IMG/VR virus record: IMGVR_UViG_2534681899_000005
DNA length: 13,486 bases
Reading direction: 5' to 3' (one strand)
Source of the DNA: a virus
Lineage: Duplodnaviria > Heunggongvirae > Uroviricota > Caudoviricetes
Shown one piece after another: positions 344-13,486 of this stretch. The notes beneath the pieces are model-generated. The model ran no database searches and was not told the origin of the DNA. It was given only the letters and a program-made list of their open reading frames with translations. The position numbers and the translations under genes were made by a program. Within the stretch, counting starts at the first letter, position 1. Each line of letters starts with the position of its first letter.

Positions 344-541
344 TAACCTGTAAAGAATTTTCACACCTGTGTGTTTATACAGTCATACTCTCCTGTTTTG
401 CAGTCATTGCACCCATGATACACAGCCCCTAACCTGTCAAAATATTTTACTACCCCACCAATAATACGGCCCATACCTGTAAAATATTTTTACTACTACC
501 TGTCAAAATCTTTTACTACTACCTGTAAAAATATTTGACAC
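344..541. repeat. Iteron array: five direct 22-24-bp repeats, three contiguous; candidate replication origin
   Basis: Copies at 344-366, 430-453, 474-496, 497-519 and 520-541 share the core ACCTGT[A/C]AAAAT(A/C)TTTTACTAC; AT-rich context. Confidence 0.7.
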
Positions 542-1109
542 TAATAGATAAAGTAATAGACCACACAATAAATCCCCCCTAACCCCCCCAGGGGGAATGG
601 GGAGGGATCAGAGAGTGGGGAAGGTTTTCTAAGGGAAAAGCTTAACCCACAAATGAAAGCCTAAAGAGCATTAGTGACTCTTTAGGCAATCTGTGTGTGG
701 GTCACTCTGTGACTTTAGCTATACAGCTAAACCGACTACATCGGCCTGTGTGTGGGGTGACAATGTATTCCATACATGACACGTCACCCAATTGTGTGTG
801 GTCCGGCGAATGCGTCAGCATGAGGCCCACATGTGGACCGCTGCCGAAAGCTTGCCAGCGCCGGAAGGAGGCAGCAAAGAGTCTCCCGCGCTCATGTGTG
901 GGCGTATACGTAAGATATACATTCATAAATCCAATTCTAGGCACCTAAATGGCCTTCTGGCTGCATTAACCTGTGTGAGTAGTGCAATTGCATTACCTGA
1001 CCTCTAAATCGCGTTAGAATCGATTTTAGAGCGCTTAAGGCAAAAAGTGCCCTCCCTCCCTTGTGGGCTTGCTTGTACCTATAGCACACCTAAATGATAA
1101 TAATTCTCA

Positions 1110-1138
1110 TTGACAATTGGTTGACAATATGATAAGAT
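1110..1138 (+). promoter_or_regulatory. Candidate sigma70 promoter (TTGACA-17-TAAGAT), with a second TTGACAAT copy at 1121
   Basis: -35 TTGACA at 1110-1115 and -10-like TAAGAT at 1133-1138; TTGACAAT is duplicated 11 bp downstream. Confidence 0.3.
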
Positions 1139-1173
1139 TATAAATAGGGGGAGAAACAGATCCGGAGGTCAAT

Positions 1174-1323
1174 GTGGAAATTACTGATGCAATAGCGATC
1201 ATCAACCTGGCTGTACTGTGGTGCGGTGTTGCCTACATAGCCGGAGTAACTGCAATCGACAATCTTGAAGAAAAAATGATAGATAAATACAAAAAGATTG
1301 TTGACAATTTGACGAATGTCTGA
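1174..1323 (+). CDS. Hypothetical small hydrophobic peptide (49 codons, GTG start)
   Basis: GGAGG at 1164-1168 lies 5 nt before GTG 1174. The translation VEITDAIAIINLAVLWCGVAYIAGVTAIDNLEEKMIDKYKKIVDNLTNV has one predicted TM helix and a charged tail. Below the ORF-track size cutoff and overlaps the downstream promoter. Confidence 0.2.
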   Translation: MEITDAIAIINLAVLWCGVAYIAGVTAIDNLEEKMIDKYKKIVDNLTNV

Positions 1324-1329
1324 TAAAAT
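1301..1329 (+). promoter_or_regulatory. Strong sigma70-type promoter for the rightward Rep operon (TTGACA-17-TAAAAT)
   Basis: -35 TTGACA at 1301-1306, 17-bp spacer, -10 TAAAAT at 1324-1329; 125 bp upstream of the first operon ATG; near-identical to the minus-strand promoter at 10859-10887. Confidence 0.55.
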
Positions 1330-1454
1330 ATAAAGCATAGGGTAATTCTCATCATAGTGAATTTCCTTTAGTAGACTGGCGGGGGCTTGTATTAAGTTCC
1401 CGTTTCTTTTTAACCGTATATCGCACAGGCGGTGAGCTGACAGGAGATTGAATC

Positions 1455-1664
1455 ATGGCTAAAACCGGACCGATAAGCCAGCTTGTAAACTGGACTACTG
1501 ACGAAATCGTCGAGAACGTGCTTAAAGGTAACTTTCGAAAAACTTCCGTTTATGCATTTATTCGTAAACACAAAGGAGAATATCCACACATTGAAGCGGC
1601 AATAGAAAAACTTAACTTTATCCGTATTGAGCGTGAGCTGGAAAGATATAAACATCTACTTTGA
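1455..1664 (+). CDS. Small (69 aa) putative DNA-binding regulator
   Basis: ATG preceded by AGGAGA RBS; stop overlaps the TTG at 1661 of the next gene; basic, with an HTH-like segment (TTDEIVENVLKGNFRKTSVYAFIRKH). Family not recognised. Confidence 0.5.
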   Translation: MAKTGPISQLVNWTTDEIVENVLKGNFRKTSVYAFIRKHKGEYPHIEAAIEKLNFIRIERELERYKHLL

Positions 1665-1684
1665 TAAATAATTGTGAGGGAATT

Positions 1685-2590
1685 ATGGCAAACAATAAAC
1701 TGGGGGCACATTTCACCCCAATTTTTAAACGTTTCATCAAGTATAATTTTGAAAATCCAATTGCAAAAACTACAACAGGCAAAGAGAGATTTAATTTAAA
1801 TGCGACGGAATTGATAATTTACGGGGAAATGGTTGGCTTTCATTTAAACGGCAACGAAATATTCATCTCGGAGCAGACCTTAGCAGATGATTGGGATTTT
1901 TCAAGACCAACGATTATTAAAGCTATTAAATCTCTAGTAAATGCTGGGATTATTTCTAAAGATAACCGGAAAGGCAAATCTAACATTTACAAACTGTTAA
2001 TTACACCTGAGCAGTTTGATAAAATGTGCGATGAGCAGGGTATTAAAACCTTAGACAGTGTGGGAGACAGCAAAGAGGCACCTGCTACACAGGCCCAAGA
2101 TAATCAACAGGAAGCCCCAAAAAAAGCCGCACAGCAAGCTAAAAAGGCTAAAGTAGTGCAATTGCCTACCCAAGACACTAAAGCGCCTCAAATTAACGCT
2201 GTTAGTGACAAGCCACGCCGGGGCCGTCCTGTGAAAGATGCAACAGATGGAGGCTGGATCGCCCTGGGTGAGAGTGAGGCTAAAGGCATAATGCGATCAC
2301 TGTGGGAAAGCAAATACAAAGATTTAAACAAACGTCGCCCGATCCTTTTGTCAAAGATTCAGGAGGATTTTTACACCGCAGAAGAGGTAAGCCAACATAA
2401 AGGGAAAAGAGAGGGTGAAATCTGGAAACCGGAAGAATACTGGCATTTAACCAGACCTGTGTTTATTTTTGCAAATAAGCTTATTGGGATGGGATTTGAA
2501 ATATTGTTAGATAAAACCTGCGGAGATTATCCCGAAATATTGTGGAGAAATGTTAGAAAAAATAAAAAAGGCATTTTAGAGTTTAAATAA
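1685..2590 (+). CDS. Putative replication initiator / replisome-organiser-like protein (winged helix plus AT-hook)
   Basis: ATG 1685 with GAGGGA RBS (the track uses in-frame TTG 1661). N-terminal winged-helix-like region (..FISEQTLADDWDFSRPTIIKAIKSLVNAGIISKD..), P/Q/A/K-rich linker with AT-hook KPRRGRPVK, C-terminal domain. Iteron array lies about 1.1 kb upstream. Confidence 0.45.
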   Translation: MANNKLGAHFTPIFKRFIKYNFENPIAKTTTGKERFNLNATELIIYGEMVGFHLNGNEIFISEQTLADDWDFSRPTIIKAIKSLVNAGIISKDNRKGKSNIYKLLITPEQFDKMCDEQGIKTLDSVGDSKEAPATQAQDNQQEAPKKAAQQAKKAKVVQLPTQDTKAPQINAVSDKPRRGRPVKDATDGGWIALGESEAKGIMRSLWESKYKDLNKRRPILLSKIQEDFYTAEEVSQHKGKREGEIWKPEEYWHLTRPVFIFANKLIGMGFEILLDKTCGDYPEILWRNVRKNKKGILEFK

Positions 2591-2638
2591 AAACACTGAT
2601 AATCTTATTTTTTTACAGTATTCTAAAGGAAATTTAAA

Positions 2639-2785
2639 ATGTATGGCGATTTTGATTATTACCTGGAAAAGGAAAAATATTTTGAAGATGAACTATCACA
2701 ACATTTTTCATATTGGGAAGAATATTGTGGTTGGTTAGCTGAAGATCCAGCAGATGAAGAAAACGATTCTGACATCCCTTATTAA
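2639..2785 (+). CDS. Hypothetical small acidic protein (48 aa)
   Basis: ATG 2639 with AAAGGA RBS 8 nt upstream; translation MYGDFDYYLEKEKYFEDELSQHFSYWEEYCGWLAEDPADEENDSDIPY; below the track cutoff, found by hand. Confidence 0.3.
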   Translation: MYGDFDYYLEKEKYFEDELSQHFSYWEEYCGWLAEDPADEENDSDIPY

Positions 2786-2889
2786 TTAATATCCCCTGTT
2801 ATCCCCAAATAAACTAAATAAACTAATTACATATAGAACTAGAACTAGATTGATTTCTCTTTAATGTTAAATTGACTGGAGAATTAATC

Positions 2890-3375
2890 ATGTTCAAATC
2901 TGATCTTTCTGATTCCCAATTTGAAAAACTGGTAGCACTGCAGAAATATCTTCCCAGTGATGATCAACCAACACGACAGGCCAAACACTTATTAGTCGAG
3001 GGCTTTACCCCTGAATTCGTGGCGGAATATACAGGCGTTAAACTTGAGAAAGTCCAAAAACTATATAATGAATCCTGGAATCCACGGTGTCGAGTTCCCC
3101 TCAGTGTCTATAACGACACAGACAGAGATAGAAATGTCTTCGAAGATCGCCGCCGCAAATCTCTTTTAATGTGGAATTGCGGGATGAATATTGAAGAGAT
3201 AGCAAAAGAATTAAAAGTAACCTGCTTTCATATCTGGGGTTTGTTGAGTGAAATCCTGCCACGTAAGGAGCTTAATCAACGTTTGCCTAAGCCCGGTAGT
3301 CGTGCTTATCGCGAATTTATATTCATCTACCGCCGCCATAGCAATAAAGTCCGGAAAGCAATGCAGCGCAAATAG
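2890..3375 (+). CDS. Hypothetical DNA-binding protein with two HTH-like segments (161 aa)
   Basis: ATG 2890 with TGGAGA RBS (the track ORF starts at TTG 2872). Segments GFTPEFVAEYTGVKLEKVQKLY and GMNIEEIAKELKVTCFHIWGLL resemble resolvase or sigma-region-4 type HTH; basic C-terminus. Confidence 0.5.
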   Translation: MFKSDLSDSQFEKLVALQKYLPSDDQPTRQAKHLLVEGFTPEFVAEYTGVKLEKVQKLYNESWNPRCRVPLSVYNDTDRDRNVFEDRRRKSLLMWNCGMNIEEIAKELKVTCFHIWGLLSEILPRKELNQRLPKPGSRAYREFIFIYRRHSNKVRKAMQRK

Positions 3376-3433
3376 CTTATAGCCTTCACATATGCCGCAA
3401 GTTATTGATTCTGCCGTCCGGTAAATATGCCGG

Positions 3434-3907
3434 ATGGCTCATATAAATTTTAAGGAATTCCAAATGTCTCAAATCGCTAAATTATTATCCCAGGTTATCA
3501 AAGCTATCGACGCTGAAGATTCAAAAGTTCGCCAGGATCTTTTAGATGGCAAGTTTACCAACACCCTGGCATTTACCCGTGACAAAGAGCACTTCTTAAA
3601 GCACAGACATCACGCTTTCGCTGAATGCAAGTCCGCTAATGGTGATGTTTTCTATGTCGATTTGGTGGTTATGGCATGCCGGTTGTGGATGATTCAGGAC
3701 CTTATGCGCCAACACGGTGATGATCCTCTTATCAGCATGTGGAACAGCGCCCAGGATGGCTTTGTGATTGCTGCCTTATCTAAATCCATGATTGAGGCAG
3801 AAGGCGCAAGCCTTCAGAACATGGCAGATCTCTTTGAAATAAGCGTAGGAATGATGCAGACCATGCTGCAGGCGGTGAAGCCTCTCAAACTGGTTAATCT
3901 TGATTAA
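3434..3907 (+). CDS. Hypothetical protein (157 aa; alternative start ATG 3464)
   Basis: Long ORF co-directional with neighbours; ATG 3464 has a TAAGGAA RBS; no recognisable motifs. Confidence 0.5.
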   Translation: MAHINFKEFQMSQIAKLLSQVIKAIDAEDSKVRQDLLDGKFTNTLAFTRDKEHFLKHRHHAFAECKSANGDVFYVDLVVMACRLWMIQDLMRQHGDDPLISMWNSAQDGFVIAALSKSMIEAEGASLQNMADLFEISVGMMQTMLQAVKPLKLVNLD

Positions 3908-3922
3908 ACTATTGATAAATAA

Positions 3923-3947
3923 GCACTCCCCATTTTTTGGGGGGTGC
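3923..3947. other. Intergenic GC hairpin (GCACTCCCC-ATTTTTT-GGGGGGTGC)
   Basis: 9-bp stem with one G.T pair and a T-rich loop, between the 157-aa and 129-aa genes; no downstream U-tract on the plus strand. Confidence 0.4.
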
Positions 3948-3961
3948 ATCAATGAGAGGAT

Positions 3962-4351
3962 ATGCCTATGAATATTGAAGAAATGATAGTTGAATTCGAA
4001 GAGGGTGATTTCCTGGAGGATGGGGAGTTTAGTTACTCCCGTTTTAAACAGGCGTTATTTAGCAGCGAGGATAAACCACACGTTAGTGATCTTAACGACG
4101 ATGATTTATGTCGCTGGGTATGCACCCGCTTATATGAGGATGGAAAATATACAGGCCAAAACTTTCCAAATCTCTATTTCAAAGCACAAACATTTGAGGA
4201 AGGGCAAAGAGTGAAAAACCTGGTCGATAAAATGCTTTCAGCCGGATATTTGCATAAAGAATTATTAAATCCTAAAGCTGAAAGCAAGCGCCATTATATT
4301 TTTGTGTGGACTATTGGCGATAAGTGTCCACTAAGACGCAAAGGAAAATGA
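3962..4351 (+). CDS. Hypothetical acidic protein (129 aa; probable start ATG 3968)
   Basis: GAGAGGA RBS upstream; sits two genes before the tape-measure-like gene, so a tail-assembly-chaperone-like role is possible but unproven. Confidence 0.5.
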   Translation: MPMNIEEMIVEFEEGDFLEDGEFSYSRFKQALFSSEDKPHVSDLNDDDLCRWVCTRLYEDGKYTGQNFPNLYFKAQTFEEGQRVKNLVDKMLSAGYLHKELLNPKAESKRHYIFVWTIGDKCPLRRKGK

Positions 4352-4352
4352 T

Positions 4353-4589
4353 ATGAATACCTACGAAAAGATTTATCAAAAACTGGTTAAGGACTCCGAA
4401 GAGACGCACGAAGGGGTGACAGTAGGTCACCTGCCAGAGGCAGCGAAAGAGGGGGCCACCATTATTAAAAGTTGCTCCCACACAGAAGGCCTCTCAATCG
4501 AAGAGCTTGCGGAGAAATATAATATTGATAAAGAGGCCCTGAAAAGGGCTATTTCATTATCAAAATCTTTAAGACAGGGCGAGGTGTAA
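4353..4589 (+). CDS. Hypothetical protein (78 aa)
   Basis: ATG 1 nt after the preceding stop, AAGGA RBS; stop 3 nt before the tape-measure-like ATG, so tightly coupled. Confidence 0.5.
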   Translation: MNTYEKIYQKLVKDSEETHEGVTVGHLPEAAKEGATIIKSCSHTEGLSIEELAEKYNIDKEALKRAISLSKSLRQGEV

Positions 4590-4592
4590 GAG

Positions 4593-6719
4593 ATGGCAAT
4601 GAAGGAAGTCGCCAGACTAACAAACGTTATTTACTGGGATTCTGATAAATCCAGCTGGCGAAAAGAAGTTAAACGGCTTGAGGATTATAAAAAATCCTGG
4701 AAGAAAGCCACCGACGATATAGCTAAAGCGGATTTTAAATCGAATCAGGCTGTGCTCAGAACACAAAGAACACGCGCTAAGGTGGAAGAGCAGATTGCCA
4801 GAGCACAGAAGAAACAACGTGCTCAGGCTGTCAGCCGTCTGACCGGGGGCAATAATCCGGAGCTCTCCTCTATGCGCAAGTTCTACCAACAACAAGCCAG
4901 AGAAGCCGCCAGACAACAAAAACTGTTAGATCGTAGTGTTGGAGATGTTCAGCACAGAAAAGCACGTGTAGGGGCCAACAGTGCACGAATCAGCAGCATG
5001 TTTGATGGCTCCCTGGTTGCTCAGTTCCAATCCAGAATTCAGAGAGTTAATGCTGATTATGCTAAAGGGGCTATTAACCTGCAGACCTATAATCAGAAAA
5101 TGGCCCGACTCAGAGCTGAAATGAAGATGGCAACAGCAGAGGCCGGAAAATTTCAGAGCAGACTAGACAAAGCTGCGGTAGCAGGATCTAAGCTGCATGA
5201 CAACCTGGGGAAACTCAACTCCACACTTGGCAAGATAGCTATTGGCCTTACTGCCGCTGGCTGGGGTGTTCAGCGTGCTGTTAGTGGTGCTATGGGTAGC
5301 CTTGCAGATCGCAACAGTGCCTACTTCGGTTTGATGGCACAGAACAAGGATGATAAAGCCAAGACTGATCAGCAGATGGCTTTTATCAAGAACACAGCCT
5401 ACACCTACGGGATGGATGAGCGGGAGATGCAAGGTGGCTACATGCGCTTTGCTGCAGCTACCCCCACCATGAAGGAATCTGATAAGCAGGCTCTTTTTGA
5501 GGCTATGGCTATTAAAGGTCGCTCAGTGGGTGCTACTGGCGAGCAACAGAACAGGGCGCTTGTTGCGGTCCAACAAATGGCTTCAAAGGGAAAAGTTATG
5601 GCAGAAGAGCTGCGGGGCCAACTGTCAGAAGCCTTTGCAGGCTCACAACAGGATTTTCAACAGGCCGCTATTGATGCCGGAATCATCAAGAATGCCCAGG
5701 AATTCGATAAAGCCCTTAAAGATGGCAAAATCACCCTGGATAAGCTTCTCCCTTCTTTGGTGAAAATCTGGGGTGCTGCAAAAGAAACTAAAGCTTTTGC
5801 TGAATCCATGAAACAGCCAGAAGTAGCAATGCAGCGCATGAAAAACAGCTTTAACGAGCTGGCGATCCAGTTTATGGGTGTTGTAGATCCTGCAGATGGC
5901 GTTATTAGCTTATCTGAATCTCTGATCTCCATCTTCGAAGACCTCACTACTGATATGGACGGCAGCGGGAGCGCGGCAAAACAGTTTGGTGAGGCAGTCG
6001 GTGCTGCCATGCGGGAGATCATGTATTGGGTAGGCTTCGCTAAGGGATATATTGAGGTCAAGGCTAAAGAGTTCGGCATGACCGGATCAGAGGTTGGCGA
6101 GCTTATCGGGAAACTGGTAGTCGGCTTAGCTGGTCTGAAAGTTATTACCACACTGCTTTCCCCTCTAACCGGATTTGTTTCACTTGTCACCCAACTGATT
6201 TCTCTGATAGGCAAGATTCCAGGTCTGGGCAATCTCGTTAAGGGTGCAGGTGGTGCAGTCGCTGGAAGCCCAACAACAGCATTAGCCGCTGGCAGTGCCG
6301 CAGGTGTGGGTGTTGGTGTCGCTGGCGCACTGGGCGCTAAGACGGTAGGTGAGAAGTTCAGAGGATGGATGCAAAGCAAGGCTGATCAGTTCGGGGAGTG
6401 GGCTAAATCTAAAGGCCTGCTTAGCGATGAACAGGACGCTATGACCAAACCGGGGGCCTATAACCATAGCTACATCAACAAGGGAGCTTCTTTTAATCCA
6501 TATCCAACCATTAGCCCATCACGTCCTACTCCTAGCACTGGTACGGCTATTCAGAATGGTGGCTATCAACCTGCTCAGGTTAATGTGGTGCCTCAAGGTG
6601 AGATTTCCGGCAAATGGGAGATAACCATCGATGAGGGGGGAATTGCCAGGGTGATTCAGAAGGAAGTCAGCGATCAGTTGGATTGGAAAGCCACACAGGA
6701 ATCTAATCAGCTTTTCTAA
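4593..6719 (+). CDS. Phage tail tape-measure-like protein (708 aa)
   Basis: GAGGTG RBS then ATG 4593. N-terminal about 200 aa is Q/R/A/K-rich and coiled-coil-like; central ..GATGEQQNRALVAVQQMASKGKVMAEELRGQLSEAFAG.. resembles the conserved tape-measure core; C-terminal Gly/Ala-rich hydrophobic segments; no Walker A or catalytic motif seen. Confidence 0.6.
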   Translation: MAMKEVARLTNVIYWDSDKSSWRKEVKRLEDYKKSWKKATDDIAKADFKSNQAVLRTQRTRAKVEEQIARAQKKQRAQAVSRLTGGNNPELSSMRKFYQQQAREAARQQKLLDRSVGDVQHRKARVGANSARISSMFDGSLVAQFQSRIQRVNADYAKGAINLQTYNQKMARLRAEMKMATAEAGKFQSRLDKAAVAGSKLHDNLGKLNSTLGKIAIGLTAAGWGVQRAVSGAMGSLADRNSAYFGLMAQNKDDKAKTDQQMAFIKNTAYTYGMDEREMQGGYMRFAAATPTMKESDKQALFEAMAIKGRSVGATGEQQNRALVAVQQMASKGKVMAEELRGQLSEAFAGSQQDFQQAAIDAGIIKNAQEFDKALKDGKITLDKLLPSLVKIWGAAKETKAFAESMKQPEVAMQRMKNSFNELAIQFMGVVDPADGVISLSESLISIFEDLTTDMDGSGSAAKQFGEAVGAAMREIMYWVGFAKGYIEVKAKEFGMTGSEVGELIGKLVVGLAGLKVITTLLSPLTGFVSLVTQLISLIGKIPGLGNLVKGAGGAVAGSPTTALAAGSAAGVGVGVAGALGAKTVGEKFRGWMQSKADQFGEWAKSKGLLSDEQDAMTKPGAYNHSYINKGASFNPYPTISPSRPTPSTGTAIQNGGYQPAQVNVVPQGEISGKWEITIDEGGIARVIQKEVSDQLDWKATQESNQLF

Positions 6720-6792
6720 TGCTGGAAGATAGCGCAGCTTTACTGATATTGTGATCAAAATCAATAAGTTAGCCCGACCGGATAAACTCCAG

Positions 6793-6828
6793 GCAAGAAA
6801 AAAGCCCCTAAGTGTTAACAAAGGGGCT
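6793..6828 (-). terminator. Intrinsic terminator, clearest on the minus strand (possibly bidirectional)
   Basis: Stem AGCCCCT (6803-6809) / AGGGGCT (6822-6828) with a 12-nt loop. On the minus strand it is followed by TTTTTTCTT (complement of 6793-6802); on the plus strand only by CTCTTCTCC. Confidence 0.5.
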
Positions 6829-6849
6829 CTTCTCCGGTATCCTTTTGAT

Positions 6850-6964
6850 GCGGGGCGAACCTGCTAACAAAAATCAACCTCTCGCGAGACTAATGTTAGC
6901 AGGTTGCCGGAAGGTAAGTCAACTCCGGCCTATAAACCTTAAAGCGACTATAAAATCGCCCCGC
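6850..6964. other. Highly structured element with nested perfect inverted repeats (candidate structured RNA or protein-binding site)
   Basis: 9-bp outer stem GCGGGGCGA (6850-6858) / TCGCCCCGC (6956-6964) encloses a 10-bp stem CCTGCTAACA (6860-6869) / TGTTAGCAGG (6895-6904), whose loop holds the palindrome TCTCGCGAGA, plus hairpin GCCGGA / TCCGGC (6906-6929). Confidence 0.4.
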
Positions 6965-7246
6965 CAATTGTGATGATCCGACCTTTGAGGCGGGTCCGGT
7001 GCCCAGGGGGTGCAGTGATGCACAAACCAGGCAACGATAAACAGGCTAACAGTGATAGCGGCGCTCAATCAGCGCACTAAATCCTAACCAGTCCGGGAAA
7101 GAGGCTGGCTCTATCGACCGCTCATGCACGGGACAATGCATACCTGATAAAGGATTCTCACAAGGGACCAATCGCGAGAAAAGAAGTGGAAAGGGGCTGA
7201 TTTGTGGTGTATCACTACGGCCTCAAAAGAACACTATTGTCTTTTT

Positions 7247-7705
7247 TCAGCCTCTCCCCACATTTGACCAGTATTTGATTGCACCGATCAAATCATCATA
7301 GTGGCGCATTGCATCATTGAAGCCTTTATAGCTTGCCCATTGTGGGGAAACCTTGTTATTGCTGAATTGCCCACTAATCAGGATAGTCTCCAAAATGTCG
7401 GCGTATCGCTTGCCAATTCGCTTTCTGACGGCCTCAGAGCTCCCACCCTTTACGATTGCATTAATCAGGGCTTTTGTGTGTCTCAGGCTCTCATAGAGCA
7501 TTGCAGCGTGGGCAGATTCCATAAAGGAGCGCTTAGGCAGATCACCCCACCCCTCAGAATGAATTGCTGCCAGTGTGGCGTAATTCAGGCCGCTATAGTG
7601 TTTCCCGTCATCCCAGCCAACCGCTACACCTTCCATCTGTGAGAGCTCTTTATGCAGCTTATCCATCATGCGCTTGTCTATGGTGCAACGGACTTTCGGA
7701 CTCAT
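7247..7705 (-). CDS. Phage virion morphogenesis / head-tail joining protein (HK97 gp10 / Mu G-like), 152 aa
   Basis: Start overlaps the upstream stop by ATGA (7702-7705); motif ..NYATLAAIHSEGWGDLPKRSFMES.. resembles the Y-A-x-H-x-x-G...P-x-R-x-F signature of this family, recalled from memory. Confidence 0.4.
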   Translation of the reverse strand: MSPKVRCTIDKRMMDKLHKELSQMEGVAVGWDDGKHYSGLNYATLAAIHSEGWGDLPKRSFMESAHAAMLYESLRHTKALINAIVKGGSSEAVRKRIGKRYADILETILISGQFSNNKVSPQWASYKGFNDAMRHYDDLIGAIKYWSNVGRG

Positions 7706-8514
7706 TTGTTGATCTCCGTGATGTCATCGAGCAACATGTTGGCCTTATCAATCATCGTTTCGTGGAACTCATTCGACACAACAGACTTATCACCTGCGGC
7801 AATCTTTCCCGCTGCCTCTCCCTGTGCATATTCCCCGCGATGCTTAGCCCTGGTTGATTTCGTAGCAGCGTTGCCAGCGTTGCTACCCTCTTTAGCACTG
7901 TTAACAGCGCCCTTTTGCTGTGTTTTATTCACCTTCTTACTGTTAGTGAAAACTCCGGCATTTTCGACCATCTTCACCTTGAAGGTGCGGAATTCTTCAA
8001 AAGTGCAATCAATAGTGATGCAGTCACCAGAGGAAGAGCTACGCTTAACTTCACATTTCGTCATGATGAAGTTCTCAAGGAGTCCGGCATCTTCACTTAC
8101 CAGGCTAACTAGCTGGCGCTTGTCTCTCATTTCCATAAGTGCCTGAACAGCGGCAGCAGGGCGCATAGATTCACGGGGATTATCTGGATCAGTGTTCCGG
8201 TCGATGTAGTTCTCTTTCCGGATGATATGAGGGGAAGAGGTAATAATGCCCGTAAAGCTGACAGATTTATCTTTAATGACGGCATGGTCTGACATGGTGG
8301 TGCCATCCTCGACCGCATAGCTCGATTTCTCGACAGGGAACGAATAGCTGACATCAGAGATTGAGTCAAAGAAGATAGCCACGTTATCGGTATAGTTGAA
8401 GCCATCCATTATATTTTTGTTTTGTGAATATCCCCCACACATAACAGTGAATGCAGGAGATCTCGATTCAGCTTGTTTTGCAGCTGTCAGAGCATCACTA
8501 GCCATATTAAACAT
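7702..8514 (-). CDS. Hypothetical protein, possibly phage structural (270 aa)
   Basis: Long ORF in the capsid operon, translationally coupled to the next gene; C-terminal half is low-complexity K/A/G/N-rich; no family recognised. Confidence 0.45.
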   Translation of the reverse strand: MFNMASDALTAAKQAESRSPAFTVMCGGYSQNKNIMDGFNYTDNVAIFFDSISDVSYSFPVEKSSYAVEDGTTMSDHAVIKDKSVSFTGIITSSPHIIRKENYIDRNTDPDNPRESMRPAAAVQALMEMRDKRQLVSLVSEDAGLLENFIMTKCEVKRSSSSGDCITIDCTFEEFRTFKVKMVENAGVFTNSKKVNKTQQKGAVNSAKEGSNAGNAATKSTRAKHRGEYAQGEAAGKIAAGDKSVVSNEFHETMIDKANMLLDDITEINK

Positions 8515-8610
8515 GCCTCCAAAATGAATCTTTTCGTTGCCCTGCTTAAAATCTGCAGAAAATACAGGGCAGTTATTCGTTAGAATCGCTTATAGCTCTT
8601 CCCGAGAGCG

Positions 8611-8862
8611 TTATTTTGCAAAACGATTATGCGCATTCAGGGCTTTTTTGCGGTCCTGGGCTTGTTTGCGTGCAATAAAATGTTCGAAAGTCTCGGCCCA
8701 GGTGCATTTATTATATTCACGGTATTTATGCATAGCCTGGCGGCTAACGTCATAGCAGGCGGCAAATGTGGAGATACGCAGGAATTCCGGCAGATCCTCG
8801 TCATCGATATGGATAATATCAAAAGGCACGTCGTCACGGTCGCCGTATAAAACAATTTTCAT
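8611..8862 (-). CDS. Hypothetical small protein (83 aa from ATG; track ORF extends to GTG at 8871)
   Basis: GAGGTG RBS 6 nt before the ATG (complement of 8860-8862); acidic N-terminus, basic C-terminus with a possible HTH (FAACYDVSRQAMHKYRE). Confidence 0.4.
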   Translation of the reverse strand: MKIVLYGDRDDVPFDIIHIDDEDLPEFLRISTFAACYDVSRQAMHKYREYNKCTWAETFEHFIARKQAQDRKKALNAHNRFAK

Positions 8863-8975
8863 AAAAGACACCTCAAAAACTTAAGACGGGGATAATAAAA
8901 AAGGGAAGAGGGAAAGACCTATCCCCGATCTCTCACCTCTTCCCTTTGCTTTTATTTGGCCTTCGAAGAAGGACC

Positions 8976-10022
8976 TTATTTAGCCTTGGCTTTTGCCAGA
9001 GCAGCGGCGGCGGAGTTACTAACACTCACTTTAACCACAACTTCAGGCATCATGTTCATGAAAGCATAAGAGGATTCAATGAAGATTTCTCGTTTACCTC
9101 TGGACTCTTCCATATACATGAAAGCTTCACGTGCAGCGCCGTTTGCAAGCTTCAGGTTGCGAGCGCAAGGGCCGAAAAATTGAGTATAAACGCCCACCAT
9201 ATCGCCTAACGCATGCGGCTGGAACTGTGGGACCAGATAAGCAGTATTCTCTGGCAGACTATCCATTTGCACCACACGCAGAGCTAAGCCTGGAATGCGG
9301 AAAGTCGGGAAGCCCGGCAGAATATCCTCAGGGAACATCAGACCTTTATCGGTAATATTCTGATTGCCGAACAACAGCACTTTTCGCAACAGTTCATCAG
9401 TCTGAATTGCAGCAAAGAGTTCAGCACGGCAGAACAGGGTGAAACCACGCAGAGCACGAACGACACCACGCTGTTTAACCTTGCTCAGTGCAACCAGGTC
9501 CTGCAGTTGTTTGAGGATGTCTTGAGCTAGATCCACTTCAGAGGTGGACTGTTCCACGCCCAGCAGTTCGCACACATTCAGTTCTTTACCCTTGGTGAGG
9601 ATAATTTTGTTCTCAAAGAGAGCAAGCTGGCGTGCTTCTTCGTGGGTCTGGCGTAAGCCTTCACCCAACTGAATAACACGACGAGCGGTTACAGACTCTA
9701 AATTCTCTTCGGAATCTTTGCCCGGAACACGGATACCTTGCCAGTCAGAAGGATAAATAGCACTTGATGCGGCAGTGAATGCCATATCACCCGTGCCCGT
9801 TTCACGCTCATCTGCGGTAATGGTAGCCATCTGTTCACCGTAGCGCGGATACTGACCGAAAGCGGATTGTTTCACCTGGCGAACTTTGTCATATTCAAAT
9901 TTAAAGGTATTGCACAGAGCAGTAGTGTTGAAGATATCCATTGCTGAAATAATCTGGTTATCCAGCGGGATATCTTTAATCAGACCACACAGATCGCGAA
10001 CTTCGAATTCTTTCTTAGCCAT
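8976..10022 (-). CDS. Putative major capsid protein, lambda gpE-like (348 aa)
   Basis: ATG (complement of 10020-10022) with AAGGAGG RBS 6 nt upstream; the track ORF starts at in-frame TTG. Size and C-terminal segment (..KREIFIESSYAFMNMMPEVVVKV..) resemble lambda E-family capsid proteins as recalled; follows a ~110-aa gene as in lambda D-E. Not searched. Confidence 0.45.
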   Translation of the reverse strand: MAKKEFEVRDLCGLIKDIPLDNQIISAMDIFNTTALCNTFKFEYDKVRQVKQSAFGQYPRYGEQMATITADERETGTGDMAFTAASSAIYPSDWQGIRVPGKDSEENLESVTARRVIQLGEGLRQTHEEARQLALFENKIILTKGKELNVCELLGVEQSTSEVDLAQDILKQLQDLVALSKVKQRGVVRALRGFTLFCRAELFAAIQTDELLRKVLLFGNQNITDKGLMFPEDILPGFPTFRIPGLALRVVQMDSLPENTAYLVPQFQPHALGDMVGVYTQFFGPCARNLKLANGAAREAFMYMEESRGKREIFIESSYAFMNMMPEVVVKVSVSNSAAAALAKAKAK

Positions 10023-10033
10023 TTTCAACCTCC

Positions 10034-10369
10034 TTATTGTGCAACACGCAAATCGCCATTGCTGGCAGCAATAACAGCGGCTAAGCCGTCTTTATCCACG
10101 TAGGCCGGATTGATATAACAGCCCTTGTTGGCAACAACGATAAAAGCGTCGCCAACTTCAGCACGTTCTACAACCAGCAGCGGAGTTTTATCTGTGTGCG
10201 TTGCTTTAACGAAGGTCTCAACCTCGCCAGCCTCAGTTACCACAACAACAGTGCCAGCCGGAATCTCAGCTTTAACTTTGTTTTTAATTTCAACGTCGCG
10301 AATACTAAATTGCTCATCTGCGGCGTATGAAATGATGTGTCCGCGTGTGCGGATAGTCATATCTTTCAT
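10034..10369 (-). CDS. Putative head decoration protein, lambda gpD-like (111 aa)
   Basis: AGGTGA RBS then ATG (complement of 10367-10369); beta-rich small protein directly upstream of the capsid candidate; first gene after the promoter. Confidence 0.35.
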   Translation of the reverse strand: MKDMTIRTRGHIISYAADEQFSIRDVEIKNKVKAEIPAGTVVVVTEAGEVETFVKATHTDKTPLLVVERAEVGDAFIVVANKGCYINPAYVDKDGLAAVIAASNGDLRVAQ

Positions 10370-10667
10370 TTGATCACCTGCGATTTAAATTAACTCCCCT
10401 CAAAGAGTTCCGGTATAACCTCTCAAACCACGACAGGCTCGGGCCGAAAAGTTATGCCGGAAATCTAAAGGGAAATTGATACAAGGAGAGGGAGATAGCC
10501 CCGCACCGTCCAAGCGGGGGCTATTCCACATGGGGAAACCGACAACAGTCGGATGATAGTTCACAGTATGATTACGGTTACTAGAGAGCACTATCACGAA
10601 AGGCACTCCCCCGGATCAGTTCAGGCTGCGGTCACATCAGCGGGGAAATACCTTTCGGGATAGCTAC

Positions 10668-10701
10668 CCACACAGAAAACCCGCAAAAGAAAACTGTGTG
10701 G
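10668..10701. promoter_or_regulatory. Inverted repeat CCACACAG-N18-CTGTGTGG in the capsid-operon leader
   Basis: Perfect 8-bp arms at 10668-10675 and 10694-10701; lies in the roughly 480-nt leader between promoter and decoration gene; overlaps TGTGGATAA. Confidence 0.35.
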
Positions 10702-10850
10702 ATAACTAGCCCAATAGGAGAATTAATCGACCACTCAACGATGATCAGGGTAGTGTTATTTATAAGGCGGCACCGCTACCTGGTCGCCTTTACTTTGGAG
10801 GAAAATACGGCAAATCAAGATCTTCTCAAATGATATTGATTCCATACTAT

Positions 10851-10870
10851 ACTGTATATTATATCAGTAT
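10851..10870. promoter_or_regulatory. LexA-box-like palindrome (SOS operator candidate)
   Basis: Minus strand reads TACTGATATAATATACAGTA, which keeps CTG-N10-CAG with an AT-rich spacer (consensus TACTGTATATATATACAGTA); overlaps the -10 of the capsid-operon promoter. Confidence 0.5.
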
Positions 10871-10887
10871 TCTCTCAAATTGTCAAC
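10859..10887 (-). promoter_or_regulatory. Consensus sigma70 promoter for the leftward capsid operon (TTGACA-17-TATAAT)
   Basis: Minus strand reads gtgTTGACAatttgagagaatactgaTATAATat: -35 at 10882-10887, -10 at 10859-10864, exact 17-bp spacer. Confidence 0.6.
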
Positions 10888-11193
10888 ACCCTGATTATAT
10901 AAATTCTAATAATTAGCGTGGTAACTGTATTTTCAGACCTCTATCAATCCCATCAATACGTCACCCCACCCTTTAGATGCATACATCCGACCTACTTTGT
11001 AGGCTTGGCGTACTGCCAAGGTCGCAGCTATGCGACTCCTATCTATCACCACTTTATAAAGCTTGATAGATATCTTTTGATCAATATCAATGTTTTCCAG
11101 GGATTTACCCGGCTATAGTTCGAATCAAGGAAGGGGAGCATTGATAGCACCCAACCGAGCAAACAAATCAACTTCTCGCAAAAGGTGATAGTT

Positions 11194-11316
11194 ATGGGTA
11201 TCAAGAACAGTGCCAGCGCATGGCAAAAGGCCAGGTTTCATCACCCACACATTGTTAAGGCAATTGAGGTGGTTGGAGTTTTAGCCCTGATGTTAGCTCT
11301 GTGTGTGGAGGTGTGA
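11194..11316 (+). CDS. Hypothetical small hydrophobic peptide (40 aa)
   Basis: AAGGTGA RBS 6 nt before the ATG; translation MGIKNSASAWQKARFHHPHIVKAIEVVGVLALMLALCVEV has a C-terminal TM-like segment; its leader shares a 15-nt motif with the 173-aa gene leader. Confidence 0.25.
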   Translation: MGIKNSASAWQKARFHHPHIVKAIEVVGVLALMLALCVEV

Positions 11317-11380
11317 GATAGGCAAAGGAGGCAAAGCATTTTTTAATAGGTCTGGCAGTCTTAGATTTTGTATTAATCAT

Positions 11381-11423
11381 CATTGAGCGGAGTTTATGAA
11401 CAGCATTGAGAGGAGTTTATGAC
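11381..11423 (+). repeat. Tandem duplication of a translation-initiation region, with an 8-codon upstream ORF coupled by ATGA
   Basis: CATTGAGCGGAGTTTATGAA (11381-11400) is followed by a near-identical second copy (11404-11423, CATTGAGAGGAGTTTATGAC); mini-ORF 11396-11422 (MNSIERSL) stops at TGA overlapping the main ATG at 11419. Confidence 0.45.
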
Positions 11424-11679
11424 GGGGGCTAAAGATATCAGGAGACTGAGGGAAGAGCTGATAGCTGAAATTAAAGCTAAGGCAAAGCAAATGGAGATAG
11501 CCGCACAAATGGATGTAGCGGAACAGATGTACAAGATGGTTGAAGAGGGAACACCACGACAGGTTATCGCTAAAACCTTCGGTGTGGGGATCGCCACCGT
11601 GCACAGAAGGCTGAAAGCCTATGCCGACTACCACAATATCGAGAGAAAGGAGGATGGGAGATTTAAGAAGAATAAATAG
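11419..11679 (+). CDS. Small HTH DNA-binding protein (resolvase/Fis-type HTH), 86 aa
   Basis: GAGAGGAG RBS; coiled-coil-like N-terminus; C-terminal GTPRQVIAKTFGVGIATVHRRLKAY matches the Hin/resolvase-type HTH pattern; no recombinase catalytic domain. Confidence 0.5.
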   Translation: MTGAKDIRRLREELIAEIKAKAKQMEIAAQMDVAEQMYKMVEEGTPRQVIAKTFGVGIATVHRRLKAYADYHNIERKEDGRFKKNK

Positions 11680-11736
11680 TAGGAACAGTCCAACAGGTTA
11701 TTAACTAAATTCAACTTCTCGCAAAGGGGTACCATT

Positions 11737-12258
11737 ATGTTATTTCAGAAAGATAAAGAATCAGTAAATAAAAGGCTTTTTAAAGAACTGGTAAAAATGT
11801 TCTTTCAGTACACTGCAGCGTTTTTGATAGCCGGGCCTTGGTTAATGGCTATCTGTTTTTACCCTGCTACCTTGTTTATTGGCAGTAGCAAGTTCGGCGA
11901 TGGCCCGTTTCATGTGGATATTGGTTTTATAGATTCTCTCCTGATCCGTCCTATAAATGCTGTTCTCAATGCTTTCTACTTCCCCACTAGTCTAGAGGGG
12001 TGGGCGGTAACCTGGGGTGTTTTAGGCTTAGCATATGTATATTGGTTGGTTGGCTTTTTGTGGGGTGCAATCTGTGCTCTCCTCGATATTGATACAGGAT
12101 CAAGCCGTAGGAGTGGTGGTAATAATAGCGGAGCGGGTGTATATGCACATGTAGGCACCAGGGGAGCTAGTGTTACCGCAGGTACCCGATTCGCTGGCGG
12201 CTGGCTGAGCATAGGCAAACGCGGCGTTAGTTGGAGAAAAAGCAAAAAACTGTTCTGA
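11737..12258 (+). CDS. Hypothetical membrane protein (173 aa, 2-3 predicted TM helices)
   Basis: ATG 11737 with a leader containing TCAACTTCTCGCAAA; hydrophobic segments (AAFLIAGPWLMAICFYPATLFIG; GWAVTWGVLGLAYVYWLVGFLWGAICALL); Gly/Ser/Arg-rich tail; followed by a terminator. Confidence 0.5.
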   Translation: MLFQKDKESVNKRLFKELVKMFFQYTAAFLIAGPWLMAICFYPATLFIGSSKFGDGPFHVDIGFIDSLLIRPINAVLNAFYFPTSLEGWAVTWGVLGLAYVYWLVGFLWGAICALLDIDTGSSRRSGGNNSGAGVYAHVGTRGASVTAGTRFAGGWLSIGKRGVSWRKSKKLF

Positions 12259-12265
12259 CCTACCA

Positions 12266-12292
12266 GGGGGGCCATCACGGCCCCTTTTTATT
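12266..12292 (+). terminator. Rho-independent terminator
   Basis: GC stem GGGGCC / GGCCCC with loop ATCAC, followed by TTTTTATTTAT; 8 nt after the stop at 12258. Confidence 0.75.
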
Positions 12293-12366
12293 TATCCCTT
12301 ATTTACACTCCTTTCAGTCCTGATCATCACTCCCTACGGTAATGAGCAATTAACCCCTATTTAAGG

Positions 12367-12408
12367 GGTATTTAATGGGTATTTAATGCCTATTTATTGA
12401 TTTAATCC
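12367..12408. repeat. 11-bp tandem repeats (GGTATTTAATG x2 plus degenerate copies)
   Basis: GGTATTTAATG at 12367-12377 and 12378-12388, then CCTATTTATTG and ATTTAATCC; preceded by CCCCTATTTAAGGGG; related palindrome GGTATTAATACC at 12871-12882. Confidence 0.5.
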
Positions 12409-13099
12409 GTTTTATGCCACAACCGCCCGGTTGACAGAGTAAGAGAGAGGGTGTAACCCTTTTTCGTAAAACCAATAAAATCAATAGCTTAGCTCAATTG
12501 GCCTTTTCTCTGTTTTTGTCAAATTTAACATGCCCTCAAAAACTGCAAAATCTGGCTGCAAGATTATCTGCAGCTGGATTTCTTACACCTCAATTTGTGG
12601 TATCACCCTGACTAGTTTGTGCATAAAATGAACAGTTTTTAACATTTCCTATTCACCTGGTAACCACACAAAAAGCTAAAAACGAGGCACAGATAATCTT
12701 AGAGGCCTGTTTTCTTGTTATCACTCTGGGAACGTCGTAGAAGTGATTTTGATGAAAGACGGCCTACCCTATTACACCCCCATTTTTTGTTATCACAATT
12801 GCATCCTGTGCGGTATATGACTATGTGCTGAAAGCGGTCTCAGGTGTGGGTGTCAGAAATATCCATTAGCGGTATTAATACCCGTCAGATGTTCGTCTGA
12901 GGTGCCAGGCAGGCGCTCCCCTACCTCCCCTTTTTCTTCTAACAATTCTCAAATATCACACCACTGCCCACCACGTTGCTATTATGTTAATTCTTAAGCT
13001 TTGCTTTATGTTGTGCACATTATTTATTCAGGTGCGTGTACGTAAATTCTGGGCCTCCTTATCACGATTTTTAAATCAGATTTTGTAGTGCGCTTTATT

Positions 13100-13127
13100 A
13101 GTGTAGATAAGATCTATTATGTTAAAT
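13100..13127 (+). promoter_or_regulatory. Candidate Xer recombination site (dif/psi-like)
   Basis: AGTGTAGATAA-GATCTA-TTATGTTAAAT: right arm is identical to the E. coli dif XerD arm as recalled; 6-bp centre resembles pSC101 psi (GATCCA); left arm is degenerate versus GGTGCGCATAA (5 of 11). Confidence 0.35.
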
Positions 13128-13391
13128 GCAATTTTCCCAACCCTTCAAATCAATGACTTACATGTAAGCATGCACTAACACCCCACACAGCACATTAGAC
13201 GTGTAGATGTCCATATCCCACATTTTTGATTGTTTTGTAGTCATTCCCCTGATCATTTAACCAGTATAGTTTGTTCTCTGCAGACCACAAAATCGGAATT
13301 TACATCTGATTAACATAATCTGTTAGCATGATCACCATTACCCACACAACAATAACCCCATGCAAGCCTCTTCAGGCAATTTATCGGCGTG

Positions 13392-13486
13392 TTGGTGTGA
13401 ACAGTCTTTCATGTTCTTTATGTATCAGTTGTCCTGTGTGGTGATTTGGTGGACTGCCCCAGGGGCCATACTTATGATGCCCGGTC
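13392..13486. repeat. Right copy of 95-bp terminal direct repeat
   Basis: Exact match to 1-95 on the same strand. Confidence 0.9.

What the first reader, a model, noticed from the sequence alone, without database searches (positions are those of the whole stretch)
13100..13127. dif/psi-like Xer site in the non-coding right arm, which may explain the missing integrase
A 28-bp sequence has a right arm identical to the dif XerD-binding arm (TTATGTTAAAT) and a 6-bp centre one base off the psi centre, with a degenerate XerC arm. An exact 11-mer match is expected by chance well under once in 13 kb. Host XerCD could resolve multimers or integrate the element, as in plasmids with cer/psi sites or Xer-exploiting integrative elements. 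A weaker inverted candidate lies on the minus strand near 13301-13329 (GGTGATCAT...TTATGTTAATC).
Basis: partly seen in the sequence, partly recalled or inferred. Interest (0 to 1): 0.7.

Follow-up and report, generated by a model that had tools for sequence, protein, structure and literature searches.

The report
Xer (dif-like) site on phage-like plasmid
The 28-bp sequence is a genuine-looking target for the host XerC/XerD recombinases on a small, circular, phage-like E. coli plasmid. It most likely keeps the plasmid monomeric rather than integrating it, which is a common plasmid strategy, here found in an unusual host element.

Summary
Window 13100-13127 reads AGTGTAGATAA-GATCTA-TTATGTTAAAT. 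The XerD arm is identical to E. coli dif, the centre is one base off psi, and the XerC arm matches dif at 7 of 11 positions.

- **Score:** against a matrix built from 184 curated enterobacterial Xer sites it scores 27.5 bits. That is above 23% of the curated sites, and 0 of 300 shuffles reach it.
- **Conservation:** it is invariant in all 16 family members. It is one of only two invariant stretches of 28 nt or more in a 1-kb conserved non-coding block.
- **Inverted candidate:** this is noise (-1.2 bits, not conserved).
- **Host element:** the window is a complete 13.39-kb circular plasmid with an O-like Rep and iterons, plus capsid and tail genes. It has no recombinase, terminase or portal.
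- **Integration:** it is never chromosomal in 5,426 complete E. coli genomes, so integration at dif is not supported.

The best reading is XerCD-mediated dimer resolution. No canonical ArgR or ArcA accessory sequence is present, which is atypical for a small plasmid.

Unexpectedly, some virulent Seuratvirus phages carry a near-identical site that shares motifs on the XerC-side flank. The site is a new member of a known kind, of moderate interest.

The parts
13100..13127 (+). Xer recombination site (xrs) core. XerC arm 13100-13110 AGTGTAGATAA; 6-bp central region 13111-13116 GATCTA (contains a GATC Dam site); XerD arm 13117-13127 TTATGTTAAAT.
   Evidence: sequence. PWM 27.5 bits, 0/300 shuffles reach it; invariant in 16 family members; one arm mismatch from curated xrs AGTGCAGATAA... 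and AGTGTCGATAA...
13030..13099 (+). XerC-side flank with two motif islands, TACGTAAA (13039-13046) and AGATTTTGT (13078-13086). The same islands occur at the same spacing upstream of the xrs of Seuratvirus phages. This may be a non-canonical accessory region.
   Evidence: flank alignment; 33/70 and 29/70 anchored identities versus 18 +/- 3.6 in shuffles, while the XerD side gives 12/70 and 11/70; the islands are invariant or nearly so in the family.
12470..13391 (.). Roughly 950-bp conserved non-coding block that contains the xrs. It has no ORF over 38 aa and no Rfam family, and its function is unknown apart from the xrs. A second invariant run lies at 13388-13419.
   Evidence: conservation. 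(ORFs). (Rfam); no similarity outside the family except the xrs region of phage WildeMaa.
345..545 (+). Five ~22-bp iteron-like direct repeats (aacctgtMaaaatatttttactact), the presumed replication origin about 0.5 kb from the xrs on the circle. They are hypervariable among relatives.
   Evidence: Read directly. One search shows the variability.
1661..2590 (+). Replication initiator (O-like / DnaD-like HTH protein). It shows the element is an autonomous plasmid.
   Evidence: HTH_36, DnaD_N. (phrog_270/678, replication initiation O-like).
13308..13336 (-). Rejected.
   Evidence: -1.2 bits; the XerD-like arm and centre are changed in L021/L022.
12963..12992 (+). Third TTATGTTAA-containing candidate (8-bp spacer). 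Rejected.
   Evidence: 14.8 bits, below the shuffle maximum of 19.3; its XerC-like arm is deleted in L021/L022 and the TTA of the D-like arm varies.
13392..13486 (.). 95-nt repeat of window 1-95, a circular-contig assembly overlap. The true element length is 13,391 bp.

Best explanation
The 28-mer at 13100-13127 is a functional Xer recombination site (xrs) of a 13.39-kb circular, iteron/Rep-replicating, phage-like plasmid of E. coli.

Proposed mechanism:
1. Host XerC binds the left arm (AGTGTAGATAA) and XerD binds the right arm (TTATGTTAAAT).
2. When homologous recombination has fused two plasmid copies head to tail, the two directly repeated xrs synapse.
3. XerC and XerD exchange strands across the identical 6-bp centres (GATCTA), returning the dimer to monomers.

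This lets the plasmid be inherited stably without encoding its own resolvase.

What is shown: the sequence fits the xrs definition quantitatively, it is under stronger purifying selection than its already conserved surroundings, the element has no recombinase, and it is always extrachromosomal.

What is inferred: XerCD binding and catalysis, the dimer-resolution role, and how recombination is controlled.

The control mode is open. The core is of the 28-bp dif/psi type and no ArgR- or ArcA-type accessory sequence is recognisable. That points to FtsK-activated, XerD-first recombination, as shown for AS-less xrs of large plasmids. However, the replicon is small, and its XerC-side flank is conserved and shares motif islands with phage-borne copies of the site. 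A non-canonical accessory region is therefore about equally plausible.
For: - **Sequence:**. The dif, psi and cer reference sequences were verified.
- **xrs rules of Fournes et al. [quoted passage not shown]
- **PWM from 184 curated xrs:** 27.5 bits, above 23% of curated sites by leave-one-out, with 0/300 shuffles reaching it. Positive controls scored 30.7 (psi) and 34.7 (cer).
- **Nearest curated xrs** differ by a single arm base.
- **Conservation:** the site is identical in all 16 family members, including L021/L022, which are 82.6% identical over the region. Only 9 of 974 28-nt windows of the block are invariant.
- **No recombinase, integrase or resolvase** is found in any ORF.
- **Literature:** 70% of enterobacterial plasmids under 25 kb carry xrs and such plasmids tend to lack recombinases. 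Cloned xrs of this type all recombined XerCD-dependently.
- **Independent occurrence:** a near-identical site is retained in Seuratvirus phages. Their XerC arm varies at 4 positions yet stays within the consensus, at 32.6 bits each.
Against: - There is no experimental evidence.
- The XerC arm carries rare bases at positions 5-7 (T, A, G; frequencies 0.05, 0.14 and 0.21 in curated sites).
- No ArgR box at about -113..-99, no ArcA box at about -97..-81, and no similarity to any known accessory sequence. In the survey, every xrs on a small plasmid had one, and AS-less 28-bp xrs were almost confined to large replicons.
- The whole surrounding ~950-bp block is conserved for unknown reasons, so part of the site's conservation could be shared with the block.
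- The more divergent relative L020 shows no xrs in the 18 kb held.
- There is no signal that the xrs is a recombination breakpoint within the family.
- One record is a head-to-tail trimer, although this is most likely an assembly artefact.
Confidence: 0.7

Rival explanations
1. The sequence is functional but not, or not only, as a dimer-resolution site. It and its XerC-side flank form a module used in phage-type biology. Possible roles include a binding platform for another protein at or near an origin or early control region, a packaging-related signal, or recruitment of XerCD or FtsK for something other than resolution. The dif resemblance would then be mimicry or incidental.
For: - The same module (xrs plus TACGTAAA at -61 and AGATTTTGT at -22) sits between divergent early gene blocks of virulent Seuratviruses, which have no obvious need for dimer resolution.
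- The site lies in a ~950-bp conserved non-coding block of unknown function, only about 0.5 kb from the iterons.
- The element encodes a stand-alone resolvase-type HTH protein of 86 aa.
Against: - Both arms and the spacing fit the XerCD consensus. In the phages the XerC arm varies only within that consensus, which is what selection for XerC/XerD binding predicts.
- There is no protein homology between the element and the phage.
- The other TTATGTTAA copies that might have suggested a different repeated operator are not conserved.
Confidence: 0.13
2. The match is a non-functional coincidence or a relic. It is an AT-rich stretch that happens to resemble dif and is conserved only because the whole block is conserved.
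For: - The block around it has 72% invariant columns among close relatives.
- The XerC arm is degenerate.
Against: - 0/300 shuffles reach the PWM score, and the gap is large (27.5 versus a maximum of 19.3).
- The 31-nt invariant run is one of two in 1 kb.
- An independently maintained, near-identical site occurs in unrelated phage genomes.
Confidence: 0.1
3. The site is an attP of an integrative element exploiting Xer (IMEX). XerCD would integrate the element into chromosomal dif, which would explain the missing integrase.
For: No integrase is present. The XerD arm is identical to dif, and the last two centre bases next to the XerD arm (TA) match dif.
Against: - There are no chromosomal copies of the element or of its conserved block in 5,426 complete E. 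coli genomes, and all 9 places are plasmids.
- The exact 27-mer is absent from 185,579 species-representative genomes.
- Contigs of relatives are all about 13-15 kb circles. The one 30-kb contig is a transposon-bearing plasmid variant.
- The element has its own Rep and iterons.
- The centre matches dif at only 3 of 6 positions.
- No XafT-like DUF3653 protein is present.
Confidence: 0.04

Closest known systems
psi of pSC101 and other ArcA-type plasmid xrs (e.g. pECO-b75 GGTGCCGATAA-CGTCCA-TTATGTTAAAT)
   Same: 28 bp with a 6-bp centre; a GATC-containing centre one base off psi; a dif-type TTATGTTAAA(T/C) XerD arm; a GATAA inner XerC arm as in pECO-b75; carried on a small iteron/Rep plasmid without its own resolvase.
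   Different: There is no ArcA box (TAACA-N6-CAACA on the top strand at about -97..-81) and no sequence similarity to the ~180-bp psi accessory region. The outer XerC arm is more divergent.
cer of ColE1 and ArgR-type xrs
   Same: A host-XerCD-dependent multimer-resolution site on a small plasmid that lacks a recombinase.
   Different: cer-type sites mostly have TTATGGTAAAT arms, often 7-8-bp centres, and an ARG box (TGCAT-N4-ATGCA) at about -113..-99. None of these is present here.
Chromosomal dif and the AS-less 28-bp xrs of large plasmids (R27, pHCM1, R478; FtsK-dependent)
   Same: 28 bp; an identical XerD arm; an 'AGT...' XerC arm; no recognisable accessory sequence. The nearest curated sites (AGTGCAGATAA-CGTGAA-..., AGTGTCGATAA-TGCGTT-...) have this 28-bp format with a dif-type XerD arm.
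   Different: Those replicons are over 100 kb, whereas this one is 13.4 kb and has no partition system detected. KOPS is at chance level with a single copy. The site lies next to the origin rather than opposite it.
IMEX attP sites (CTXphi, VGJphi, TLCphi, gonococcal genetic island)
   Same: A mobile, phage-related element without an integrase that carries a dif-like site.
   Different: IMEXs are found integrated at dif, but this element is never chromosomal and replicates autonomously. No XafT-like factor is present. It is a tailed-phage-like dsDNA element, not a filamentous phage.
Cre/loxP of phage-plasmid P1
   Same: A phage-type plasmid replicon that needs dimer resolution for stable plasmid inheritance.
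   Different: P1 encodes its own tyrosine recombinase. This element would outsource the job to host XerCD.

Membership tests
xrs (XerCD recombination site: dif/cer/psi family) | Two 11-bp arms separated by a 6-8-bp central region | tested here: met
   11 + 6 + 11 bp at 13100-13127.
xrs (XerCD recombination site: dif/cer/psi family) | XerD arm better conserved than XerC arm; the inner 5 bp of each arm are the most conserved and near-palindromic (rules in PMC11724359) | tested here: met
   XerD arm 11/11 to dif and XerC arm 7/11. The inner bases are GATAA | TTATG, 4 of 5 palindromic. Positions 10-11 (AA) occur in 99-100% of curated sites.
xrs (XerCD recombination site: dif/cer/psi family) | Scores within the range of curated xrs and above background | tested here: met
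   27.5 bits, above 23% of 184 curated xrs by leave-one-out. 0/300 shuffles reach it.
xrs (XerCD recombination site: dif/cer/psi family) | Cooperative XerC/XerD binding and XerCD-dependent recombination | not testable with these tools
   Needs EMSA and two-site deletion assays in xerC and xerD backgrounds.
cer/psi-type accessory-sequence-dependent resolution site | About 180-200-bp accessory sequence on the XerC side, with an ArgR box (about -113..-99) or an ArcA box (about -97..-81) | tested here: not met
   No ARG box of at least 12/16 at that position; the only one is at -37. TGTTA repeats are in the opposite orientation and 24 bp apart (compared).
cer/psi-type accessory-sequence-dependent resolution site | Sequence similarity to known accessory sequences | tested here: not met
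   blastn (word 11) of 12470-13391 against 72,556 plasmids returns only the element's own family.
cer/psi-type accessory-sequence-dependent resolution site | PepA (plus ArgR or ArcA) dependence and FtsK independence | not testable with these tools
   Genetic test required. The conserved XerC-side islands leave a non-canonical accessory region possible.
dif-type, FtsK-activated xrs | 28-bp site (6-bp centre) devoid of an accessory sequence | tested here: inconclusive
   The 28 bp and the lack of a canonical AS are met. A novel AS cannot be excluded.
dif-type, FtsK-activated xrs | Large, low-copy replicon with KOPS polarity converging on the site | tested here: not met
   The replicon is 13.4 kb and has one KOPS, which is chance level. 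The site is about 0.5 kb from the iterons.
IMEX attachment site | Element found integrated at host dif, flanked by hybrid sites | tested here: not met
   0 chromosomal places in 5,426 complete E. coli genomes. The 27-mer is absent from species-representative genomes.
IMEX attachment site | Central-region homology with host dif on the side of the exchanging recombinase | tested here: inconclusive
   GATCTA versus TGTATA matches at 3 of 6 positions. Only the two bases next to the XerD arm are contiguous matches (read directly from the sequence).

The most novel reading that the evidence does not exclude
The xrs plus its ~70-nt XerC-side flank (islands TACGTAAA at -61 and AGATTTTGT at -22) is a previously unrecognised type of Xer module. 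It would carry a short, non-ArgR/non-ArcA accessory region, shared by unrelated phage-type replicons of E. coli: a plasmid-borne, satellite-like element and a subset of virulent Seuratviruses. On this reading, tailed dsDNA phages and their plasmid-like relatives recruit host XerCD. They might do so to resolve circular replication intermediates or to exchange DNA at the site, under a control different from the cer/psi or dif/FtsK paradigms.
Probability: 0.2. Interest if true: 0.7.

Novelty: new member of a known kind. Interest (0 to 1): 0.45.

Why it matters
Xer sites on small enterobacterial plasmids are routine, so the core finding mainly completes the annotation of this element: it explains how a recombinase-less plasmid can avoid the dimer catastrophe.

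Three aspects give it some extra value:
- It is a rare case of a 28-bp dif-type xrs without a recognisable ArgR or ArcA accessory sequence on a replicon under 25 kb. A recent survey found this combination almost only on large replicons. It therefore offers a compact test case for what actually decides between FtsK control and accessory-factor control.
- The carrier is a widespread, uncharacterised 13.4-kb plasmid with capsid, tape-measure, Dit and neck genes but no terminase or portal. It is a candidate plasmid-type satellite of a tailed phage, and reviews note that only one plasmid satellite has been demonstrated. Knowing its maintenance site helps in engineering and curing it.
- Closely related sites sit in virulent Seuratviruses, where a role for XerCD has not been described in the searchable literature.

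Tried and rejected
- **Second, inverted Xer site (13308-13336, minus strand).** Rejected: -1.2 bits and not conserved. This also removes the idea of a CTX-like forked hairpin or an invertible, pdif-like module formed by two sites.
- **Third TTATGTTAATT (12982-12992) as a XerD arm or an ArcA box.** Only TGTTAAT is conserved, the orientation and 24-bp spacing do not fit ArcA sites in curated accessory sequences, and its 'XerC arm' is deleted in L021/L022.
- **ARG box at 13013-13030 (TGCAC-N7-ATTCA).** The spacing and the distance from the core are both wrong.
- **Conservation in distant relatives.**
  - MCP homologues at 81%, 43% and 31% identity (L012, L018, L019) sit on contigs too short to reach the region.
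  - L020 (47% identical neighbouring protein; 18 kb of the contig held) has no xrs.
  - Scans of genome contigs and viral contigs with the MCP alignment found nothing, and the metagenome scan found only close relatives.
- **Seuratvirus as helper phage.** No protein homology, and no other shared DNA.
- **xrs as a recombination breakpoint within the family.** Four-gamete incompatibility is not enriched across it.
- **KOPS polarity.** A single motif, uninformative.
- **NZ_CP010068.** This is the one similar-sized AS-less xrs plasmid in the survey, but it is an unrelated Yersinia plasmid.
- **Upstream motifs next to other validated sites.** An attempt to check whether they also flank chromosomal dif and the R27 xrs failed because I fetched the wrong coordinates.
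- **IMG/VR scan for ATAA-NNTCTA-TTATGTTAAAT.** It returned 28 unrelated contigs, many with the site at a contig end, and was not informative for this element.
- **Literature.** Nothing was found on this plasmid family or on Xer sites in Seuratviruses or phage-plasmids.

Full report
**What the window is.** The first 95 nt repeat the last 95 nt, so the window is a circular contig of 13,391 bp.
- Near-full-length relatives at 90-96% identity are nine E. coli records, all annotated as 13.2-13.7-kb circular, non-mobilizable plasmids. They come from humans, chicken, cattle and a feral pig on several continents.
- One 39.6-kb record is a head-to-tail trimer.
- None of the 9 places in 5,426 complete E. 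coli genomes is chromosomal, and the phage collection holds no relative.
- The element encodes an O-like/DnaD-like replication initiator (1661-2590). Five ~22-bp iteron-like repeats lie at about 345-545.
- It also encodes a lambda-E-type major head protein, a tape-measure protein, a Dit-like protein and a neck/tail-completion protein.
- It has no integrase, resolvase, terminase or portal.
- About 2.5 kb (12260, through the junction, to about 1450) is non-coding.

**The observation.**
- Positions 13100-13127 read AGTGTAGATAA-GATCTA-TTATGTTAAAT.
The dif 28-mer GGTGCGCATAATGTATATTATGTTAAAT is printed verbatim in 11 papers.
- The records of pSC101 and ColE1 contain GGTGCGCGCAA-GATCCA-TTATGTTAAAC and GGTGCGTACAA-TTAAGGGA-TTATGGTAAAT.
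- So the XerD arm equals dif, the centre is one base off psi, and the XerC arm matches dif at 7 of 11 positions. The exact 11-mer occurs once in the window.

**Is it more than chance?**
- Fournes et al. (NAR 2025, PMC11724359) define xrs by three rules: inner arm bases most conserved and near-palindromic, the XerD arm better conserved than the XerC arm, and a 6-8-bp non-conserved centre. They list the unique xrs of 981 enterobacterial replicons, of which 184 were recovered here. The site meets all three rules.
- A PWM built from that list gives 27.5 bits. This is higher than 23% of the curated sites scored leave-one-out, and the XerC arm alone is higher than 16%.
- The best score in each of 300 dinucleotide shuffles of the element averaged 5.3 (sd 3.8, maximum 19.3).
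- psi and cer score 30.7 and 34.7 as controls.
- The site is not in the curated list, but two curated xrs differ by a single arm base: AGTGCAGATAA-CGTGAA-TTATGTTAAAT and AGTGTCGATAA-TGCGTT-TTATGTTAAAT.
- A third candidate at 12963-12992 scores 14.8 bits, within the shuffle range.

**Conservation.**
- All nine database relatives plus six further assemblies carry the identical 28-mer. These include L021/L022, whose neighbouring gene product is only 68% identical and whose flanking 1.4 kb is 82.6% identical.
- This must be read against the background, because the site lies in a ~950-bp non-coding block (12470-13391) that is itself conserved.
- Even so, 27.6% of the block's columns vary among the 16 sequences. 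The 31-nt run 13100-13130 is one of only two invariant runs of 28 nt or more; the other is 13388-13419. Only 9 of 974 28-nt windows are invariant.
- The second and third TTATGTTAA motifs are altered in L021/L022. They are therefore not a repeated operator, and the primary site stands alone.

**Which kind of Xer site?**
- In the survey, 70% of plasmids under 25 kb carry an xrs and such plasmids tend to lack recombinases, which fits this element.
- However, every xrs on a small plasmid had an accessory sequence (AS) on the XerC side, with an ArgR or ArcA box at a fixed distance. [quoted passage not shown]
- Here the XerC-side flank has no ARG box at -113..-99. In ColE1 that box is TTGCATAGGTATTCATA at -115.
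- It also has no ArcA box of the curated form (TAACA-N6-CAACA on the top strand at -97..-81). The TGTTA-like repeats present are in the opposite orientation and 24 bp apart.
- blastn of the whole block against 72,556 plasmids finds only the family itself.
- KOPS is at chance level, and no XafT-like (DUF3653) protein is encoded.
- The site is thus a dif/psi-type core without a canonical AS on a 13.4-kb replicon, which is atypical. The control mode cannot be assigned by computation.

**Integration.** The IMEX reading is not supported.
- Neither the element nor its conserved block occurs in any E. coli chromosome.
- The 27-mer is absent from 185,579 species-representative genomes.
- All relatives' contigs are about 13-15 kb, except a 30-kb contig that is the same plasmid with a ~16-kb resistance-transposon insertion.
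- The element replicates autonomously.
- The centre matches dif at 3 of 6 positions.

**An unexpected relative of the site.**
- The only similarity of the block to any of 50,697 phage records covers exactly window 13078-13127. The hit is in the virulent Seuratvirus WildeMaa.
- There, between divergent gene blocks, lies AGTGCAGATAA-CGTCTA-TTATGTTAAAT. Phages Seurat and VogelGryff have AGTACGTATAA-CGTCTA-TTATGTTAAAT at the same place. All three score 32.6 bits.
- It is the only high-scoring xrs in the 60-kb WildeMaa genome; the next best scores 6.4.
- Eight of 36 related phage records share the full intergenic stretch. Five others examined lack the site there.
- The XerC arm differs at four positions between phages yet stays within the consensus, as expected if XerC binding is selected.
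- The element and WildeMaa share no protein homology and no other DNA, so a helper relationship is not indicated.
- Anchored at the xrs and ungapped, the 70 nt on the XerC side are 33/70 (WildeMaa) and 29/70 (Seurat) identical to the window, versus 18 +/- 3.6 for shuffles (P <= 0.003).
- Shared islands TACGTAAA (-61) and AGATTTTGT (-22) occur at identical spacing and are invariant or nearly so in the plasmid family.
- The XerD side shows no similarity, at 12/70 and 11/70.
- Homology confined to the XerC side could reflect a short, non-canonical accessory region or an old exchange at the site. I could not discriminate between the two.
- Within the plasmid family the xrs is not a detectable recombination breakpoint.

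**Conclusion.**
- The integration half is effectively refuted, and the inverted second site is noise.
- As a kind of thing it is a new member of a well-known class.
- The unusual points are the lack of a canonical accessory sequence on a small replicon, the phage-like and possibly satellite nature of the carrier, and the closely related module in virulent Seuratviruses. The searchable literature describes neither the plasmid family nor Xer sites in those phages.

Noticed in passing
window 1-13391 (whole element): The element is a complete 13.39-kb circular plasmid. It encodes a lambda-E-type major head protein (8976-10028, -), a 111-aa protein upstream of it (a decoration-like position), a Dit-like protein (7702-8514, -), a neck/tail-completion protein (7247-7705, -) and a 708-aa tape-measure protein (4593-6719, +). 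It has no terminase, portal, protease, tail tube or integrase. It is found in 7 of 5,426 complete E. coli genomes from several continents and hosts, and one MCP cluster has 441 member sequences. It looks like a candidate plasmid-type satellite of a tailed phage. A 2025 review says only one plasmid has been shown to be a phage satellite.
   Followed up: partly
L027:3023-3050 (phage WildeMaa MZ501112.1 52807-52834); L028 and L029:1373-1400 (phages Seurat, VogelGryff): A subset of virulent Seuratviruses (8 of 36 records) carries a single high-scoring xrs (32.6 bits) between divergent gene blocks. The XerC-side motifs are shared with the plasmid family. I found no paper linking these phages with Xer.
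   Followed up: partly
window 12470-13391, continuing into 96-125: A ~950-bp non-coding block is far more conserved than the neighbouring iteron region. It has no ORF over 38 aa, no Rfam family and no convincing promoter or terminator. A second fully invariant 32-nt run lies at 13388-13419 (GTGTTGGTGTGAACAGTCTTTCATGTTCTTTA). Its function is unknown; it could be a packaging signal or an RNA.
   Followed up: partly
window 345-545 and 100-1100: Five ~22-bp iteron-like repeats are hypervariable among otherwise 90-96% identical relatives, as is the Rep gene. This suggests incompatibility-driven diversification. The surrounding non-coding DNA is rich in CCACACA/TGTGTGG motifs, seen by eye only.
   Followed up: no
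L010 (NTNY01000053.1, 30,105-bp contig), locus 13400-21041: This is a variant of the element carrying a ~16-kb insertion between the neck and tape-measure genes. The insertion has aminoglycoside phosphotransferase genes (strA/strB-like), a DDE transposase and a TetR-family regulator. It is a possible route for phage-particle-borne spread of resistance. The xrs is retained.
   Followed up: partly
L009 (NZ_CP043822.1, 39,610 bp): The record is a head-to-tail trimer of the element, with an xrs in each copy. One copy has many broken genes, so it is more likely a long-read assembly artefact than a real multimer.
   Followed up: partly
window 11419-11679 (+): An 86-aa protein consists only of a resolvase/invertase-type HTH (Pfam HTH_7, 27.5 bits against a cut-off of 23.8) with no catalytic domain. 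It is a candidate DNA-binding regulator or accessory factor, and its target is unknown.
   Followed up: no
L018, L019, L020: Distant relatives exist in metagenome assemblies. MCPs at 43% and 31% identity show the same 111aa-MCP-small ORF-Dit-neck synteny. An 18.9-kb contig (L020) has a rearranged architecture, an HNH gene, a 1.9-kb non-coding gap and no xrs. The family is therefore broader than the E. coli plasmids.
   Followed up: partly
window 1-95 and 13392-13486: An exact 95-nt terminal direct repeat, which is the assembly overlap of a circular contig rather than a biological repeat.
   Followed up: yes
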